NCBI RefSeq assembly: GCF_009914755.1 | Contig: NC_060933.1 | From: the human T2T-CHM13v2.0 reference genome, Homo sapiens | Reading direction: 5' to 3' (one strand) | Length of the DNA: 64,000 bases | Shown here: positions 26,865 through 36,817 of the stretch, one piece after another | Position numbering within the stretch: the stretch's first letter is position 1 | Layout: each line of letters starts with the position of its first letter | Translations under genes and position numbers: made by a program | Notes under the pieces: generated by a model | Databases searched by the model: none | Seen by the model: only the letters and a program-made list of their open reading frames with translations | What the model was told of the DNA's origin: nothing

Positions 26865-26955
26865 GGCTGGTCTCGAACTCCCGACCTCAGGTGATCTGCC
26901 CACCTCGGCCTCCCAAAGTGCTAGGATTACAGGGATGAGCCACCATGCCTGGCCT
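26865..26955 (-). mobile_element. Truncated AluS left-arm fragment at the left edge of the mosaic block
   Basis: Begins abruptly mid-arm (ggctggtctcgaactcc); no right arm, tail or TSD. Confidence 0.88.
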
Positions 26956-27632
26956 AAAATGAAATTTTAATTGGCAGAGAAGGCAGATGGTGAGAATTGT
27001 TGATCCAATAATAACATGAAGTCCATGAAAGCCTGTGGCTGTAAAGAATGTTGAGCTGTAGATTCCATCAGAGATAATAAAGGGGGCCTCGAAATATTCT
27101 GAGATTTGTGGAAGGGTGAAATAGACTCCTAAGAGGATTGTGGTAAGTAGTGCTTGAATTGTTTGTTTTTGGTTACCTTCTGTTAGGCTGTGATGGGCTC
27201 AAGTCATTGAAACTCCTGATGCAAGTAATACGGACGTATTTAGGAGAGGTACTTCTGAAGGGTTCAGGGGAAGAATACCTGTTGGGGGTCAATGTCCTCC
27301 TAATTCTGGGGTCGGTGCTAAACTGGAGTGATAGCATGCCCAGAAAAAACCGGCGAAGAAGGATACTTCTGAGATAATAGGAGCATCCTGTATCAGAGGC
27401 CTTTTTGGACAATTGCTGTGTGGTGGCCTTGGAATGTACTTTCTCGGACAATATCACGTCATCATTGATATATAGTCAGTGTGTTGGTTAGTAGGCCTAA
27501 AGTTAAAAGAGTGGTAGAATTAAAGTGAAATCCTATGGTTAGGCCAGATGTTATTAGGAGAGCCGAGAGAGCTCCTGTTAGTGGTCAAGGGCTAGGTACA
27601 ACTATATGGTAGGCATGTGTCTGGTGGGTCAT
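26956..27632 (-). pseudogene. MT-CO3: NUMT: mitochondrial COX3 pseudogene fragment (start codon to about nt 680)
   Basis: Minus strand begins ATG ACC CAC CAG ACA CAT GCC TAC CAT ATA GT (MTHQTHAYHMV in the mitochondrial code); later a ...[23 protein letters not shown] motif; degenerate and clearly diverged from modern human mtDNA. Confidence 0.93.
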
Positions 27633-27783
27633 TATGTATTATGCGAACAAAGACTAATAGTGTGAAGACATAAGCTTGAATAAGAGTGACAGCGAACTTG
27701 AGAACAGTTAGTAGAATTAGAATAATAGGAAATACTGAAGTTGCAGAGACACTAATAATTGATAATATTAGCACTGCACTGTA
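27632..27783 (-). pseudogene. MT-ATP6: NUMT: mitochondrial ATP6 3' end
   Basis: Translates to ...IILILLTVLKFAVTLIQAYVFTLLV; TAA overlaps the COX3 ATG (TAATG) as in mtDNA gene order. Confidence 0.92.
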
Positions 27784-27806
27784 TTTTAATTCTTTTTCTC
27801 CTGTAG

Positions 27807-27901
27807 GAAAAAGAAGAACTGATTGAAGAGTGGCAACCAGAACCTCTTGTTCCTCCTGTCCCAAAAGACCATCCTGCTCTCAACTACAACATCGTTTCAG
27901 G
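27807..27901 (+). pseudogene. SPTLC1: Isolated copy of a 95-nt SPTLC1 coding exon (probably exon 3); unprocessed partial duplicate
   Basis: Encodes [32 protein letters not shown], matching recalled human SPTLC1; polypyrimidine-AG acceptor (tctttttctcctgtag) and GT donor (gtaaat) intact; no other SPTLC1 exons recognised in 64 kb. Confidence 0.92.
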
Positions 27902-33354: not shown

Positions 33355-33475
33355 CTGGCAGGCAGGGTCTCCACTTTTTACAAATTTGCCTGAGACCATT
33401 CCTCAGGTCATTCAGGTGGTCATGGCCTAGCCAGGCTTTGAACCCGGGCTGTGCAATTCCACAGCTGGTGCTCTG
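33355..33475. mobile_element. MIR remnant
   Basis: caggtcattcaggtggtcatggcctagccaggctttgaacccgggctgtg. Confidence 0.55.
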
Positions 33476-34089
33476 GCCTGTGTGCCTCATGATCATGGAT
33501 ACAGCATCTATTCTTAATTTTTCCTGTAGTCCTGGGGTACTTAGCACCGTGGCATATCTGTAATAAGCACATGCACACCTCGAAGGAGGTCTTCACTTCA
33601 ACATACAAGTTGACCATGGCATGCTCTGGGCTCCAGTCCTCTACAAAGTTGTAGGGCAGGAACTACCAGTTGTCAGCACAGCACCATCCCACATTGCTCT
33701 TCTAATGGAGCCTTTCACCCCAGATGTTCTTTCTCGTCTGATGGGAAGGATCCAAGTATGTAAATATTATGTTCTAGATCAGCTTTGGTCTGTCCTAAAA
33801 GAAATTTGCCAGTGGATTATTCCATATGGATAAAAGTCAGTTTCTCTGGTCTTCCTGGAATGTGTCTAGAAAGCAAATACATTATTTACAAGTTCATAGT
33901 AGATCAATGTATTGGATTAAAATATGACAAACATAATTTGGTCATTGTGAGAATGCCAGCTCGGTCAACTATTCACCACACATGATGCCCTAAATATAAC
34001 TCTAGGTTTTCTTATGCCCAAGAGAGGGACATACTCTTGGGTGTCTGGACTAGGGAAACATGTATGAAAAACCATTTGGCCACTCTACA

Positions 34090-36697
34090 TCTTGTTATTG
34101 GAGAATCGAAACCATCTATATTCAAAGATATTATTAAAAGGCAAGAAGTTAACTTCTGTCATTTTGTTAATTGTTTTCTGGTTGTTTTGTAGATCTTTTG
34201 TTTCTTCTTCTTTTATTGTTTGCTTTATGGTTTGCTGAGTTTCTGTACTGATAAGCTTTGATTCCTTTATTTCATTGACATATCTGGTGTAATTTTTTTC
34301 TCTGGTTACTCTGGAGCTTACATTTAAAAATGAATAGTTATGATAGACTATTTAAAGCTGATAAAAATTTTGATCACGCACAAACCTGCTATACTACCCC
34401 CACATCCCTTGTCAGTGCCCAAAATTTGTAATTTTTTGCCTTAATTTATATTGTTCTGTATTGGGTGTTTATTAAGAACTCATTGTAGATATAAATATTT
34501 TTGACTATTTTGATGTTCAGCTTTCTCAAGGGGGATTTGAAAGATTCTAAAGCATAATTTCAGTAATGTAGAATTCTCAGTTTGAATATGAATTTACTTT
34601 TAACAGTTAGGTTGATAGTGTCCTGTATTTTTGCATGAGTATTGTTCTTTCACTTGCGATTGAAGCACTCCCTTAAGCATTTCTTGTCAGGCTGGTCTTA
34701 TGGTGATGAATTCCATACGCATTTGCTTGTCTGGGAAAGACTTTATTTCTTTAATTTCTGATGGGTAGCTGTGCTAAGTACAGTACTCTTTGCTGACTGA
34801 TTTCTCATTAGCACTTTGAATATATCATCCTCATCTCTCCTAGAATTCAAGGTTTCTGCTGTGAAAACTGATAGTCTAATGGAGACTTGCTTATTTGTGA
34901 TTTGATGCTTCACTCTTGCTAATTTTAGAAGTTTTTCTTTGTGTTTGACTTTTGACAAATTGATTATAATGTGCCTTAGAAAAGGCCTTTTTGGGTTGAA
35001 AATGTATGGGACCCTTTAAGCTTCACGGAACTGGATGTCCGTATCTCTCCCAAGAATTGGGAGATTTTCAGCTATTATTTTGTTAAATAAGTTTTCTGTG
35101 TCTTTGTCTCTTCTCTCTGTTTCTCTTCTATATTTTCAAAATCTGTTATCTTAATATCATGGCACAAGTCTCATAGACTTTCCTTGATTCTTTTTACTCT
35201 TTTTTTCTCCTTTTTTCCCTCAGGCTGGGTTATTTCAAAAGTCCTGTCTGCAAGTTCAAAAATTCTTTTGTTTGATCTAGTGTGCCATTGAAGCTCTCAG
35301 TTGTACTTTTTATTTAATTCATTCAATTCTTCATTCCTAAGGTTTCTGTTGGTTTGTTTTCTTTTTTTCCTTTCTTTTTTTTTTTTTTTTTTTGAGACAG
35401 AGTCTTGCTCTGTCACCCAGGCTGGAGTGCAGTGGCACGATCTTGGCTCACTGCAAGCTCCGCCTCCCAGGTTCACACCATTCTCCTGCCTCAGCCTCCA
35501 GAGTAGCTGGGACTACAGGCGCCCACCACCACACCCAGCTAATTGTTTGTCTTTTTAGTAGAGACGGGGTTTCATCGTGTTAGCCAGGATGGTCTAGATC
35601 TCCTGACCTCGTGATCCACCTACCTCGGCCTTCCAAAGTGCTGGGATTACAGGTGTGAGCCACCACGCCTGGCCCGTTTGTTTTCTTTAATGGTATCTAT
35701 GTCTTTGTTGAATTTCTCATTCAGGTTATGGCTTGTTTTTTTTATTATTTGATTAAGTTTTCTAGCTGTATTCTTTTGTATCTCATTGAATTTTCTTAAG
35801 ATCAATATTTCAAATTCCTTTTAAGGCAACTTGAAAATTTCCATTTATTTAGGGTAACTTTGTGAAGAATTATTGTGCACCTTTGGTGGTGTCAAGTTTC
35901 ATTGCATTTTCATGCTTTTTATCTCCTATGTTTATATTTATGAGACTGTTGACACGGTCACCTGTTCTAATTGTATAGAGTGGCTTATGTAGAGAAAGAT
36001 TTTCACCTGGAGATGTGTCTTAGGGTGTCAGTTAGATGGGCTGCATCTGCTTTAGTTCTAGGAGGACACACTAGTGTAGTATCTGTACTTTTCTCTTGCC
36101 TTTTTTTTTTTTCTTTTGCTAGTATCCATTTTGGTGATACCTGTGAGTGTCTTGGTGACCTAAGCTGCAGGAGCATGTGCAATTTGTTTTTCTGCTCAGG
36201 ATTGGGGGCTGGGGGAGAAGGTGGCGGTGTCAGGAAGCTGCATGACTATCTAGTGAATGTGTTACTGAGTCACAGGGGTTGGTTCACCAGTTTGAGATGG
36301 GACTCCTCTGGAAACACTCGCCTGGCTGTGGATTACTGGGGCTGCTCTGCAGGTTTGAGATGGGGATCACCTAGAAACACCAGGCCCAGTTGGTGAGCAC
36401 ACTGATGGCACAATAAATCAGTAATCAGTCCACAGTTAGAGTGTTGCAGTCACTAGGATGTGGAAGGCAAACCTCTTTGAGAGTTTGTTTCTAGGATATA
36501 GACAGCAGCAGCTGCTTTCCTGGAGAAGGCTGTTGTAATGACAGGGTAGCCTCTGGGATGGAAGGAGGCAGTGACCACTAGTTCATGGAGCAGAATATAC
36601 TCAGCTATGGCTTGGCTTTCTAGATGGTGCTATATGTGGACTCCTTCTCTGGGGCAGTATAGCCTTGTGGGCATCAAGCAGCTTCCTAAACTAGGCT
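34090..36697 (-). mobile_element. Old L1M segment (5' UTR, ORF1, inter-ORF region), interrupted by an AluY
   Basis: ORF 34743-34958 (KVKHKEKLLKLARVKHQIT...IRLS...AETL...DIFKVL) is L1 ORF1p-like; T-rich antisense L1 text. Confidence 0.75.
35362..35674 (-). mobile_element. AluY element
   Basis: Antisense dimer; TSD gtttgttttcttt. Confidence 0.93.
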
Positions 36698-36699
36698 GC

Positions 36700-36817
36700 T
36701 AGAGATGGGGTTTCACCGTGTTGGTCAGGCTGGTCTCAAACTCCTGACCTCTGGTGATCTGCCTGCCTTGGCCTCCCAAAGTGCTGGGATCACAGGTGTG
36801 AGCCACCATACCTGACC
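36700..36817 (-). mobile_element. Isolated Alu left-arm fragment without tail
   Basis: Starts at tagagatggggtttcacc directly after L1 sequence. Confidence 0.85.

What the first reader, a model, noticed from the sequence alone, without database searches (positions are those of the whole stretch)
26865..36700. ~10 kb mosaic cassette: NUMT + SPTLC1 exon/intron fused to an NPAP1-like/Alu/SVA2 module, probably a dispersed duplicon
Seen: unrelated pieces are packed between ordinary old-repeat flanks: a cut Alu arm, a COX3/ATP6 NUMT, one intact SPTLC1 exon with intron-like sequence, an abrupt join at ~29720 to an NPAP1-like pseudogene, its GC-rich upstream region and an L1 5' segment. I found no terminal poly(A) or TSD at either end. 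Recalled knowledge: several SPTLC1 pseudogenes and several UPF0607 copies are annotated on different human chromosomes. Inference: these are one composite unit that was assembled once and copied to dispersed sites as unspliced sequence, with mtDNA and an exon as cargo. The right boundary is uncertain.
Basis: partly seen in the sequence, partly recalled or inferred. Interest (0 to 1): 0.85.

Follow-up and report, generated by a model that had tools for sequence, protein, structure and literature searches.

The report
Partial duplicate of the SPTLC1 gene
The "mosaic cassette" is an 11 kb DNA duplicate of the stretch around exon 3 of the real SPTLC1 gene, whereas the SPTLC1/UPF0607 pseudogenes scattered on other chromosomes are spliced, polyadenylated retrocopies of an aberrant SPTLC1 messenger RNA, so the window itself is ordinary.

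Summary
They were not assembled here and did not spread as an unspliced unit.

- **What the window holds.** Window 26865-37802 (10.9 kb; right end 37802, not 36700) is colinear and inverted with the SPTLC1 gene 9.7 Mb away (C9:104,265,648-104,276,267). Identity is about 97% outside a VNTR, with no indel of 10 bp or more.
- **Where the mosaic came from.** The parent gene carries every piece in the same order. The window is therefore one DNA-level partial segmental duplication.
- **How it arrived.** Its left breakpoint cuts an Alu that continues further in the parent, its flanks are single-copy, and it has no TSD or poly(A).
- **What the dispersed copies are.** Nine copies carry SPTLC1 exons 1-2-3 spliced. 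They join by GT-AG to an antisense-Alu acceptor (window 30193) and run to one ATTAAA poly(A) site (34152). All 9 have A-tails and 7 of 9 have exact TSDs. They lack the NUMT and the intron.
- **What they carry.** The UPF0607 gene plus 1.4 kb of its 5' flank rides in them in antisense.
- **Status of the ORFs.** Five of 9 are intact, but dN/dS is about 1.2.

No paper linking SPTLC1 and UPF0607 was found.

The parts
26865..37802 (+). Whole duplicated segment. It is an inverted partial segmental duplicate of SPTLC1 (end of intron 2, exon 3, about 10 kb of intron 3). The parent lies at C9:104,265,648-104,276,267.
   Evidence: two colinear BLAST HSPs, 26865-31163 and 30780-37802, at 94.7-94.8% with gaps counted; 97.4% and 96.9% identity outside the VNTR, with no indel of 10 bp or more; homology stops sharply at both ends.
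26865..26955 (-). Alu left-arm fragment. Its cut end at 26865 is the left breakpoint of the duplication.
   Evidence: the parent's Alu continues at least 120 bp upstream of the homologous base, while the window has unrelated unique sequence there.
26956..27781 (-). NUMT (COX3 plus the 3' end of ATP6), inherited from SPTLC1 intron 2.
   Evidence: Pfam COX3, E 1.2e-62, under code 2; many stops; the NUMT sits at the same place in the parent, ending 25 nt before exon 3.
27782..27806 (+). Last 25 nt of SPTLC1 intron 2 (pyrimidine tract and AG).
   Evidence: identical arrangement in the parent.
27807..27901 (+). SPTLC1 exon 3, the only SPTLC1 exon in the window.
   Evidence: 31 of 31 residues match SPTLC1 residues 56-86; exons 1 and 2 are absent from all 64 kb of the window.
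27902..30192 (+). Stretch removed as an intron in all nine dispersed copies (GT at 27902-03, AG at 30191-92). It comprises native SPTLC1 intron 3 (27902-29724, with an Alu at about 28885-29194) and the first 468 bp of the UPF0607 module.
29725..36698 (-). 7 kb UPF0607/NPAP1-like module. It is embedded antisense in SPTLC1 intron 3, and an older paralog lies at C9:100,009,568-100,016,739.
   Evidence: colinear with the paralog; 8.3% diverged over the 2.7 kb compared; the left edge (29719-29725) is shared with five other family members; an old dispersed repeat runs unbroken across the right-edge position at C9:100.01M.
30158..30400 (-). Antisense Alu. Its T-run plus GAG supplies the 3' splice site.
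   Evidence: 9 of 9 retrocopies join exon 3 to the base after this AG. The acceptor is intact in the window and the parent.
30193..34152 (+). Equivalent of the terminal exon of the chimeric SPTLC1 transcript, as preserved in the nine retrocopies.
   Evidence: a continuous match in the three copies with an equal-length VNTR, and split only inside the VNTR in the others; all copies end here and continue with A-tails.
30504..31416 (-). Including flanks it spans 966 bp here and 680 bp in the parent.
   Evidence: nine or more other loci match window 30399-31441 at 77-81%.
31490..32738 (-). UPF0607 (POM121-family) ORF homolog, broken in the window. The lower coordinate is approximate.
   Evidence: Pfam POM121, E 2.5e-18. 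ATG kept, deletions of 2 nt and 7 nt, and in-frame stops; the longest ATG-to-stop ORF is 183 aa.
32739..34069 (-). 5' flank of the UPF0607 ORF. It is GC-rich but CpG-poor, and the retrocopies carry it whole.
   Evidence: the dispersed-repeat (L1) matches begin at about 34070.
34133..34138 (+). ATTAAA poly(A) signal on the plus strand. Cleavage falls at 34152-34161.
34070..36698 (-). L1 5' part (5'UTR and ORF1), interrupted by an Alu at about 35346-35694.
   Evidence: L1 ORF1 RBD domain at 34743-35012; dispersed matches at 66-80%.
36699..37802 (+). Remainder of the copied SPTLC1 intron 3: an Alu fragment at 36700-36820, an Alu at about 37169-37538, and unique sequence. The right breakpoint is 37802/37803.

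Best explanation
**Origin of the cassette.** The cassette is a DNA-mediated, inverted, intrachromosomal partial duplication. It copies 10.9 kb of the functional SPTLC1 gene to a single-copy site 9.7 Mb away. The copy runs from the middle of an Alu in intron 2, through a NUMT, exon 3 and about 10 kb of intron 3.

**Origin of the mosaic.** The patchwork look was inherited. Ordinary serial insertions had already loaded the parent gene's introns:
- an Alu followed by a NUMT that ends 25 nt before exon 3;
- a 7 kb UPF0607/NPAP1-like module, with an SVA2-like VNTR, Alus and an L1 5' fragment, lying antisense in intron 3.

**Origin of the dispersed family (inferred mechanism).** The many 'SPTLC1 pseudogenes' and 'UPF0607 copies' elsewhere arose differently. 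The parent gene made an mRNA in which exon 3 spliced to the classical 3' splice site of an antisense Alu in intron 3. That mRNA ran about 4 kb antisense through the UPF0607 gene and 1.4 kb of its 5' flank. It was then polyadenylated at an ATTAAA inside the L1. L1 machinery retrocopied this mRNA at least nine times, in a burst of about the same age as the duplication.

**Shown versus inferred.** Colinearity, breakpoints, splice junctions, tails, TSDs and relative divergence are shown. The transcript itself, the timing in years, and the repair mechanism of the duplication (end-joining or replication-based) are inferred.
For: **The window is a copy of the parent gene.**
- Parent and window are colinear over 26865-37802.
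- Identity is 97.4% and 96.9% outside the VNTR, with no indel of 10 bp or more, so all Alus, the NUMT and the module predate the copy.

**Direction is parent to window.**
- The parent holds exons 1, 2 and 3 with introns, while the window holds exon 3 only.
- The Alu cut at 26865 continues at least 120 bp further in the parent.
- The window's flanks are single-copy.

**Only two unspliced loci exist.**
- Of 11 of 11 candidates scored for exon 3 plus intron, only the window and the parent match the full length.
- Of 13 of 13 scored for the junction, only those two span it.

**The nine dispersed copies are retrocopies.**
- All 9 have the identical exon 3 | Alu-acceptor junction with GT-AG in the genomic copies.
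- The 5' part encodes SPTLC1 residues 1-87 (86 of 87 identical) in the one copy translated. The 5' flanks of all 9 copies printed begin with the same spliced exon 1-2 sequence.
- All 9 have A-rich tails at one poly(A) site, and 7 of 9 have exact TSDs of 9-17 nt.

**Timing.** The window, the parent and the 9 retrocopies form an unresolved star with terminal branches of 0.013-0.027. The C9:100.01M paralog is the outgroup.
Against: - No outgroup primate genome could be searched, so the empty target site and the date are not shown.
- The tree is a star: 8 of 9 inner branches are unsupported. The order of the duplication and the retrocopy burst is unresolved, and parsimony-informative sites are mostly homoplastic CpG changes.
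- No expression data were available, so the exon 3-Alu transcript is inferred only from its retrocopies.
- How the 7 kb module entered intron 3 is unresolved. So is why C6:32.53M shares the same Alu+NUMT piece, ending exactly at the NUMT end.
- Genome searches scored only the best candidates (38 of 40,665; 40 of 1,531), so 5'-truncated retrocopies could have been missed.
Confidence: 0.9

Rival explanations
1. A self-contained composite duplicon (NUMT + exon + NPAP1-like module) was assembled once and copied as unspliced genomic DNA to many dispersed sites.
For: - The components do co-occur at 11 places: the exon 3 hits combined with the module hits.
- The window copy has no poly(A) or TSD.
Against: - Nine of the 11 places are spliced, tailed retrocopies, and seven of them have exact TSDs. 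They lack the NUMT and the 2.3 kb intron.
- Only the parent gene and the window are unspliced.
- The Alu+NUMT piece occurs otherwise only at C6:32.53M, without exon or module.
Confidence: 0.03
2. Reverse direction. The window locus is the original site of assembly, and the SPTLC1 gene acquired the block from it.
For: Sequence identity alone does not give a direction.
Against: - The block contains SPTLC1 exon 3 in phase between exons 2 and 4 of a functioning gene.
- The parent has exons 1 and 2 upstream and a fuller Alu at the left edge, while the window has a cut Alu, unique flanks and no other exon.
Confidence: 0.02
3. The window copy, or a lost longer duplicate that included it, was the source gene of the nine retrocopies rather than the SPTLC1 gene.
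For: - The tree cannot separate the window from the parent as source.
- The window keeps an intact donor, acceptor and ATTAAA.
Against: - The window has no exon 1, exon 2 or SPTLC1 promoter, and all 9 retrocopies begin with them.
- The left breakpoint lies in intron 2, so the copy never held them unless a later deletion happened to end exactly at the homology edge.
- The parent is slightly closer to the retrocopies than the window is (2.8-4.1% against 3.2-4.8%).
Confidence: 0.04
4. The antisense-carried UPF0607 copies are functional protein-coding duplicates kept by selection. The retrocopy route would then have amplified a working gene together with its promoter.
For: - Five of 9 retrocopies keep an indel-free 416-codon ORF, and a sixth has a stop only at codon 408.
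- Each carries 1.4 kb of 5' flank.
Against: - dN/dS against the majority ancestor is 1.21 for the six intact or near-intact copies and 1.16 for the five broken ones. Neither is below neutral (binomial P 0.86 and 0.79).
- Seven indels over 11 lineages give roughly even odds of an ORF surviving by chance.
- The 5' flank has CpG o/e of 0.17-0.33, so it is not a CpG island.
Confidence: 0.12

Closest known systems
Segmental duplication / duplicative transposition of a gene fragment, with a breakpoint in an Alu (the Alu enrichment at duplication junctions reported by Bailey et al. 2003 is recalled, not read here)
   Same: - The copy is over 1 kb and over 90% identical (10.9 kb, about 97%).
- It is intrachromosomal and inverted.
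- One breakpoint lies inside an Alu.
- It has no TSD or poly(A).
- It copies exon, intron and resident repeats alike.
   Different: - There are only two genomic copies, so it is not a multi-copy 'core duplicon'.
- There is no Alu at the acceptor site, so Alu-Alu recombination at the target is not indicated.
Processed pseudogenes (L1-mediated retrocopies) of an alternative transcript with an exonized antisense Alu (the 3' splice-site usage described by Lev-Maor et al. 2003 and Sorek et al. 2002 is recalled)
   Same: This applies to the nine dispersed copies, not to the window.
- Introns are removed at GT-AG.
- The acceptor is the T-run/GAG of an antisense Alu.
- They share one poly(A) site after ATTAAA, and have A-tails and TSDs.
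   Different: - The Alu 'exon' is not internal. It opens a 4 kb terminal exon made of intron sequence.
- All SPTLC1 exon 3-bearing retrocopies found (9 of 9) come from this aberrant form and none from the normal mRNA.
Retroposition of antisense or passenger gene sequence: PMCHL1/2 from an antisense MCH transcript (Courseaux and Nahon 2001), and AMAC1 copies carried by SVA transduction (Xing et al. 2006). Both are recalled, not read here.
   Same: A gene is copied by retroposition as passive cargo of another transcript. Because it lies antisense, or in transduced flank, its own upstream region travels with it.
   Different: - The carrier here is a spliced host-gene mRNA (SPTLC1 exons 1-3) rather than an SVA or L1 read-through or a pure antisense RNA.
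- The cargo shows neutral evolution.
NPAP1 / NPAP1L / UPF0607 retrogene family (Neumann et al. 2014, PMC3942032; abstract and passages read)
   Same: - The module's ORF is POM121-family.
- Matches at 70-79% lie at C9:92.0 and 92.5 Mb, which may be the paper's two opposed NPAP1L pseudogenes on chromosome 9, and at C15:22.41 Mb, which I take to be NPAP1. Both identifications are my inference, because the tools gave no gene names for these loci.
   Different: The paper attributes UPF0607 multiplication to unspecified duplication. The word SPTLC1 occurs 0 times in its main text. Its supplementary table S2 was not opened.

Membership tests
Segmental duplication (window cassette) | At least 1 kb of non-allelic genomic sequence at 90% identity or more, colinear and including introns and repeats | tested here: met
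   10.9 kb, with 97.4% and 96.9% identity outside the VNTR.
Segmental duplication (window cassette) | DNA-level copy: no splicing, no poly(A) tail, no target-site duplication | tested here: met
   the intron is retained, both homology edges are sharp, and there is no A-run or direct repeat.
Core duplicon / dispersed multi-copy duplicon | The same unspliced unit present in many duplication blocks | tested here: not met
   only 2 loci (parent and window) among the 11 and 13 places scored.
Processed pseudogene / retrocopy (window cassette) | Introns removed, 3' poly(A), flanking TSD | tested here: not met
   for the window. For contrast, the features are met by the dispersed copies: splicing and A-tails in 9 of 9, exact TSDs in 7 of 9.
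NUMT | Nuclear sequence that translates as a mitochondrial gene under the mitochondrial code and is degenerate | tested here: met
   COX3, E 1.2e-62; multiple stops.
SPTLC1 gene fragment | An exon identical to SPTLC1 coding sequence with its native splice sites and intron | tested here: met
   residues 56-86, 31 of 31; the intron is 95% identical to the parent locus.
POM121 / NPAP1 / UPF0607 family | POM121-family domain, intronless | tested here: met
   PF15229 at 67.2 bits (cut-off 27); a single continuous ORF in the copies.
POM121 / NPAP1 / UPF0607 family | Intact coding gene (window copy) | tested here: not met
   2-nt and 7-nt deletions and stops at codons 59 and 61.
Alu exonization | 3' splice site formed by the poly-T/AG of an antisense Alu and used with a canonical donor | tested here: met
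   junction identical in 9 of 9 retrocopies; the genomic copies show GT...T(20)GAG.
SVA2 element | Match to the Repbase/Dfam SVA2 consensus | not testable with these tools
   No repeat library is held. Only a 40-bp VNTR and nine or more dispersed look-alikes at 77-81% were seen. The name is recalled.
LINE-1 | L1 ORF1 or ORF2 protein domains | tested here: met
   PF02994 at 28.9 bits (cut-off 22.4) in 1 of 10 ORFs tested. The subfamily was not determined.

The most novel reading that the evidence does not exclude
The human UPF0607 copies at these nine loci and all SPTLC1 processed pseudogenes found in this genome are one and the same set of elements. They are nine or more retrocopies, made in one burst, of a single aberrant SPTLC1 mRNA (exons 1-3 plus an Alu-exonized terminal exon). 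That mRNA ran antisense through a complete intronless UPF0607 gene and 1.4 kb of its 5' flank.

Retroposition thereby multiplied a whole gene together with its upstream region as antisense cargo of a housekeeping transcript. This route appears not to be described for this family in the papers searched. Five copies still hold full 416-codon ORFs, so some may be expressed.
Probability: 0.5. Interest if true: 0.5.

Novelty: new member of a known kind. Interest (0 to 1): 0.35.

Why it matters
**For the window.** The result removes an apparent oddity. A NUMT, a lone exon and a nucleoporin-like pseudogene lie side by side because they were copied together from SPTLC1. No special assembling mechanism is needed.

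**Wider points.**
- One mechanism would explain two pseudogene and gene-model families that databases name separately (SPTLC1P and NPAP1P/UPF0607).
- The exon 3 duplicate and nine retrocopies bearing exons 1-3 are 97-100% identical to exon 3 of the real gene. SPTLC1 is the gene for hereditary sensory neuropathy type 1 (recalled). These copies are relevant to read mapping and variant calling there.
- It is a clean example of a gene spread with its 5' flank as antisense cargo of a host mRNA.
- A NUMT lies 25 nt from a constitutive 3' splice site of an essential gene.

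Tried and rejected
- **Flank contiguity.** I searched both window flanks against the genome, hoping they were halves of one repeat that would reveal the target site. Both are single-copy, so no inference was possible.
- **Order of events.** The ML tree and outgroup-polarised site counts gave a star and homoplastic CpG sites, so the order is unresolved.
- **Selection on the carried ORFs.** dN/dS is about 1.2 in intact and broken copies alike, so the functional-duplicate reading is not supported.
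- **CpG-island promoter in the GC-rich flank.** Rejected; CpG o/e is 0.17-0.33.
- **Pfam on L1-region ORFs.** One of 10 ORFs gave the L1 ORF1 hit. Five gave no hit. The four below-threshold matches in the other ORFs (Imm64, DUF4986, UBN_AB, MICSWaP) are taken as noise.
- **Literature.**
  - SPTLC1 + UPF0607: 0 papers.
  - SPTLC1 + retrocop*: 0 papers.
  - SPTLC1P names: 11 papers, judged from the search listing to be gene-list style mentions; none was opened.
  - UPF0607: 3 papers, of which only Neumann 2014 is evolutionary.
  - SPTLC1 + 'processed pseudogene': 5 papers. One was opened (PMC7140787, passage read) and is unrelated to this mechanism.
- **An L1-promoter-driven RNA copy as the route of the 7 kb module into intron 3.** I considered this because the module's left edge coincides with the family-wide 3' edge and its right edge lies in an L1 5' region. 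No clear A-tail or TSD is present, so it is left open.

Full report
**1.

Direct reading and tools confirm each piece.
- An antisense Alu left arm starts abruptly at 26865.
- A minus-strand NUMT spans 26956-27781. Its COX3 part scores Pfam E 1.2e-62 under the mitochondrial code and has many stops. The ATP6 label for its right end is recalled.
- SPTLC1 exon 3 lies at 27807-27901 between AG and GT. Its 31 whole codons match SPTLC1 residues 56-86 of PDB 6m4n.
- Intron-like sequence runs to 29724.
- A sharp join at 29724/29725 leads into a GC-rich block.
- That block holds an antisense Alu, a 40-bp VNTR of 22.7 copies, and a broken POM121-family ORF on the minus strand (Pfam E 2.5e-18).
- An L1 5' part follows. 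One of 10 ORFs tested hit L1 ORF1, at 34743-35012.
- Neither end has a poly(A) tail or a TSD.

**2. The same mosaic sits inside the real SPTLC1 gene**

A whole-genome search with 27782-28890 scored 11 of 11 candidates. Only the window and C9:104,274,252-104,275,346 matched the full length, the latter at 95%. A search across the 29725 join scored 13 of 13. Only the window and C9:104,273,347-104,273,951 (98%) span it.

I fetched 30 kb of that locus. It is colinear with window 26865-37802 in two HSPs that overlap only in the VNTR. Outside the VNTR, identity is 97.4% over 3,587 aligned bases and 96.9% over 6,326. K2P distances are 0.027 and 0.032, and no indel reaches 10 bp. The VNTR is 966 bp in the window and 680 bp in the parent.

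Every Alu, the NUMT, the module and the L1 fragment therefore predate the copy.

The parent locus carries exons 1, 2 and 3 in order with introns. The window has only exon 3.

**3. Breakpoints and direction**

- **Left edge.** The parent's Alu continues at least 120 bp further upstream. The window switches to unrelated sequence at 26864/26865.
- **Right edge.** Homology ends at 37802/37803 in non-repeat sequence.
- **Flanks.** 565 bp of left flank gives only short matches of 31-86 nt elsewhere (28 of 28 candidates scored). 598 bp of right flank matches only itself (1 of 1).

The window block is therefore an inverted, DNA-level partial segmental duplicate. It landed in unique sequence 9.7 Mb from its parent, and the direction is parent to window. 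The repair mechanism (end-joining or replication-based) is inferred, not shown. At a recalled hominoid rate of about 1e-9 per site per year, K2P of about 0.03 suggests roughly 10-25 million years. I could not test this, because no primate genomes are held.

**4. The dispersed copies are spliced retrocopies**

The first search used window 26000-37500. It gave 153 matches, with only 38 of 40,665 candidates scored.

Nine loci match 30192-34152 at 91-95%:
- C1:151.20M
- C9:28.16M
- C6:64.37M
- C2:68.54M
- C13:76.88M
- C10:31.39M
- C6:23.72M
- C16:66.15M
- C8:27.29M

In each, exon 3 (97-100% identical) abuts that match directly.

All nine share the junction ...CATCGTTTCAGG|ACGGAGTC.... This joins the last base before the GT donor to the first base after the T-run/GAG acceptor of the antisense Alu at 30158-30400.

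Upstream of exon 3 they carry spliced exons 1 and 2 and the 5'UTR. One copy was translated, and its 87 residues match SPTLC1 residues 1-87 at 86 of 87 positions. They are followed by 34 Alu-derived residues and a stop.

All nine end at 34152-34161, which is 14-23 nt after an ATTAAA at 34133-34138, and continue with A-rich tails. Seven of nine have exact TSDs of 9-17 nt. The exact-match scan found none for the other two, although C16:66.15M shows an imperfect repeat by eye.

None contains the NUMT or the 2.3 kb intron. These are L1-type retrocopies of a chimeric SPTLC1 mRNA. Its source must have held exons 1-3, which means the parent gene and not the window.

The 3'-end census (40 of 1,531 candidates scored) found the same nine. 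It also found an older retrocopy at C8:36.6M (87-90% identical) that uses the same poly(A) site.

**5. Cargo**

The 4 kb terminal exon runs antisense through the UPF0607 ORF and 1.4 kb of its 5' flank, so each retrocopy carries both.
- Five of 9 retrocopies keep an indel-free 416-codon ORF. A sixth has a stop at codon 408.
- The parent has a 1-nt insertion.
- The window has 2-nt and 7-nt deletions and in-frame stops.

dN/dS against a majority ancestor is 1.21 for the six intact or near-intact copies and 1.16 for the five broken ones. Neither is below neutral. The flank is CpG-poor, with o/e of 0.17-0.33. Intact ORFs are about as frequent as chance allows, given 7 indels over 11 lineages. I read the copies as neutrally decaying.

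**6. Relative ages**

A maximum-likelihood tree of the shared 2.7 kb puts the window, the parent and the nine retrocopies in an unresolved star. Eight of 9 inner branches are unsupported, and terminal branches are 0.013-0.027. The C9:100.01M paralog is the outgroup at 8-9%. The 84 informative sites are largely CpG homoplasy. The duplication and the retrocopy burst are of similar age, and their order is open.

**7. Older layers**

- **The 7 kb module (29725-36698).** It has a colinear paralog at C9:100,009,568-100,016,739. There, an old dispersed repeat runs unbroken across the position that forms the module's right edge in SPTLC1. That locus, or a relative of it, therefore looks like the donor.
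- **The module's left edge (29719-29725).** It is shared with three C10 copies, one C9:92.0M copy and C9:100.01M. The 'abrupt join' is thus the family's own end.
- **The Alu+NUMT piece.** It is shared at 92.5% over 1,043 bp with C6:32.53M, ending exactly at the NUMT end. I cannot explain this.

**8. Literature**

Neumann et al. 2014 (PMC3942032; abstract and passages read) define UPF0607 as a primate-specific sister of NPAP1. They report that it 'duplicated in a subset of primate species'. SPTLC1 occurs 0 times in the main text, and the supplements were not opened.

Searches gave:
- SPTLC1 + UPF0607: 0 papers.
- SPTLC1 + retrocop*: 0 papers.
- UPF0607 alone: 3 papers.
- SPTLC1P names: 11 papers, judged from the listing to be gene-list style mentions; none was opened.

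Databases that I cannot query may already record SPTLC1 as the parent of these pseudogenes.

**9. Verdict**

The window feature is a real but ordinary partial gene duplication. The more interesting by-product is the retrocopy route that ties the SPTLC1P and UPF0607 copies together.

Noticed in passing
L015 1387-2428 (C6:32,528,497-32,529,538): A 1,043-bp piece (part of an Alu plus the same COX3/ATP6 NUMT) is 92.5% identical to SPTLC1 intron 2. It ends exactly at the NUMT end, with unrelated sequence beyond. From memory, the region is HLA class II and the NUMT is named MTCO3P1 there. The direction and mechanism of this older copy are unexplained.
   Followed up: partly
window 27782-27806 and the parent locus: In the functional SPTLC1 gene, the NUMT ends only 25 nt upstream of the 3' splice site of constitutive exon 3. 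Only the pyrimidine tract and a short stretch are left as native intron.
   Followed up: no
L012 (C8:36,596,827-36,599,391): An older, rearranged copy of the module is 87% identical to the window, the parent and C9:100.01M alike. It ends at the same ATTAAA poly(A) site with an A-rich tail and lacks SPTLC1 exons. Plus-strand (antisense to UPF0607) transcripts were therefore apparently retrocopied before or outside the SPTLC1 context.
   Followed up: partly
C9:100,009,568-100,016,739 (L010, L011, L014, L017): The older paralog of the 7 kb module holds a 498-codon open frame. Relative to the retrocopy ORF it has a 315-nt in-frame insertion near the N-terminus and a 206-nt gap. A further diverged inverted copy (77-88% identical) lies about 30 kb away at C9:99.98M.
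   Followed up: partly
L019-L021 (C10:80.73M, 88.26M, 51.54M): Three near-identical C10 loci match window 29719-30396 at 88-89% and 31442-31956 at 76%, with no match to the VNTR stretch between them (the Alu itself is within the first match). They share the module's left edge. They probably lie within C10 duplications.
   Followed up: no
window 30476-31441: The VNTR is the only part where the window (966 bp) and the parent (680 bp) differ by a large length. The retrocopies also differ from one another in VNTR length.
   Followed up: partly
L001-L009, 5' ends: The retrocopies start at slightly different points upstream of the SPTLC1 ATG. Some include ...CCTTCCGGAAGGAAGCGG and others start at GGAAGCGG, consistent with several transcription start sites. 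The C2:68.54M copy has about 55 extra nt between its TSD and the SPTLC1 5'UTR.
   Followed up: no
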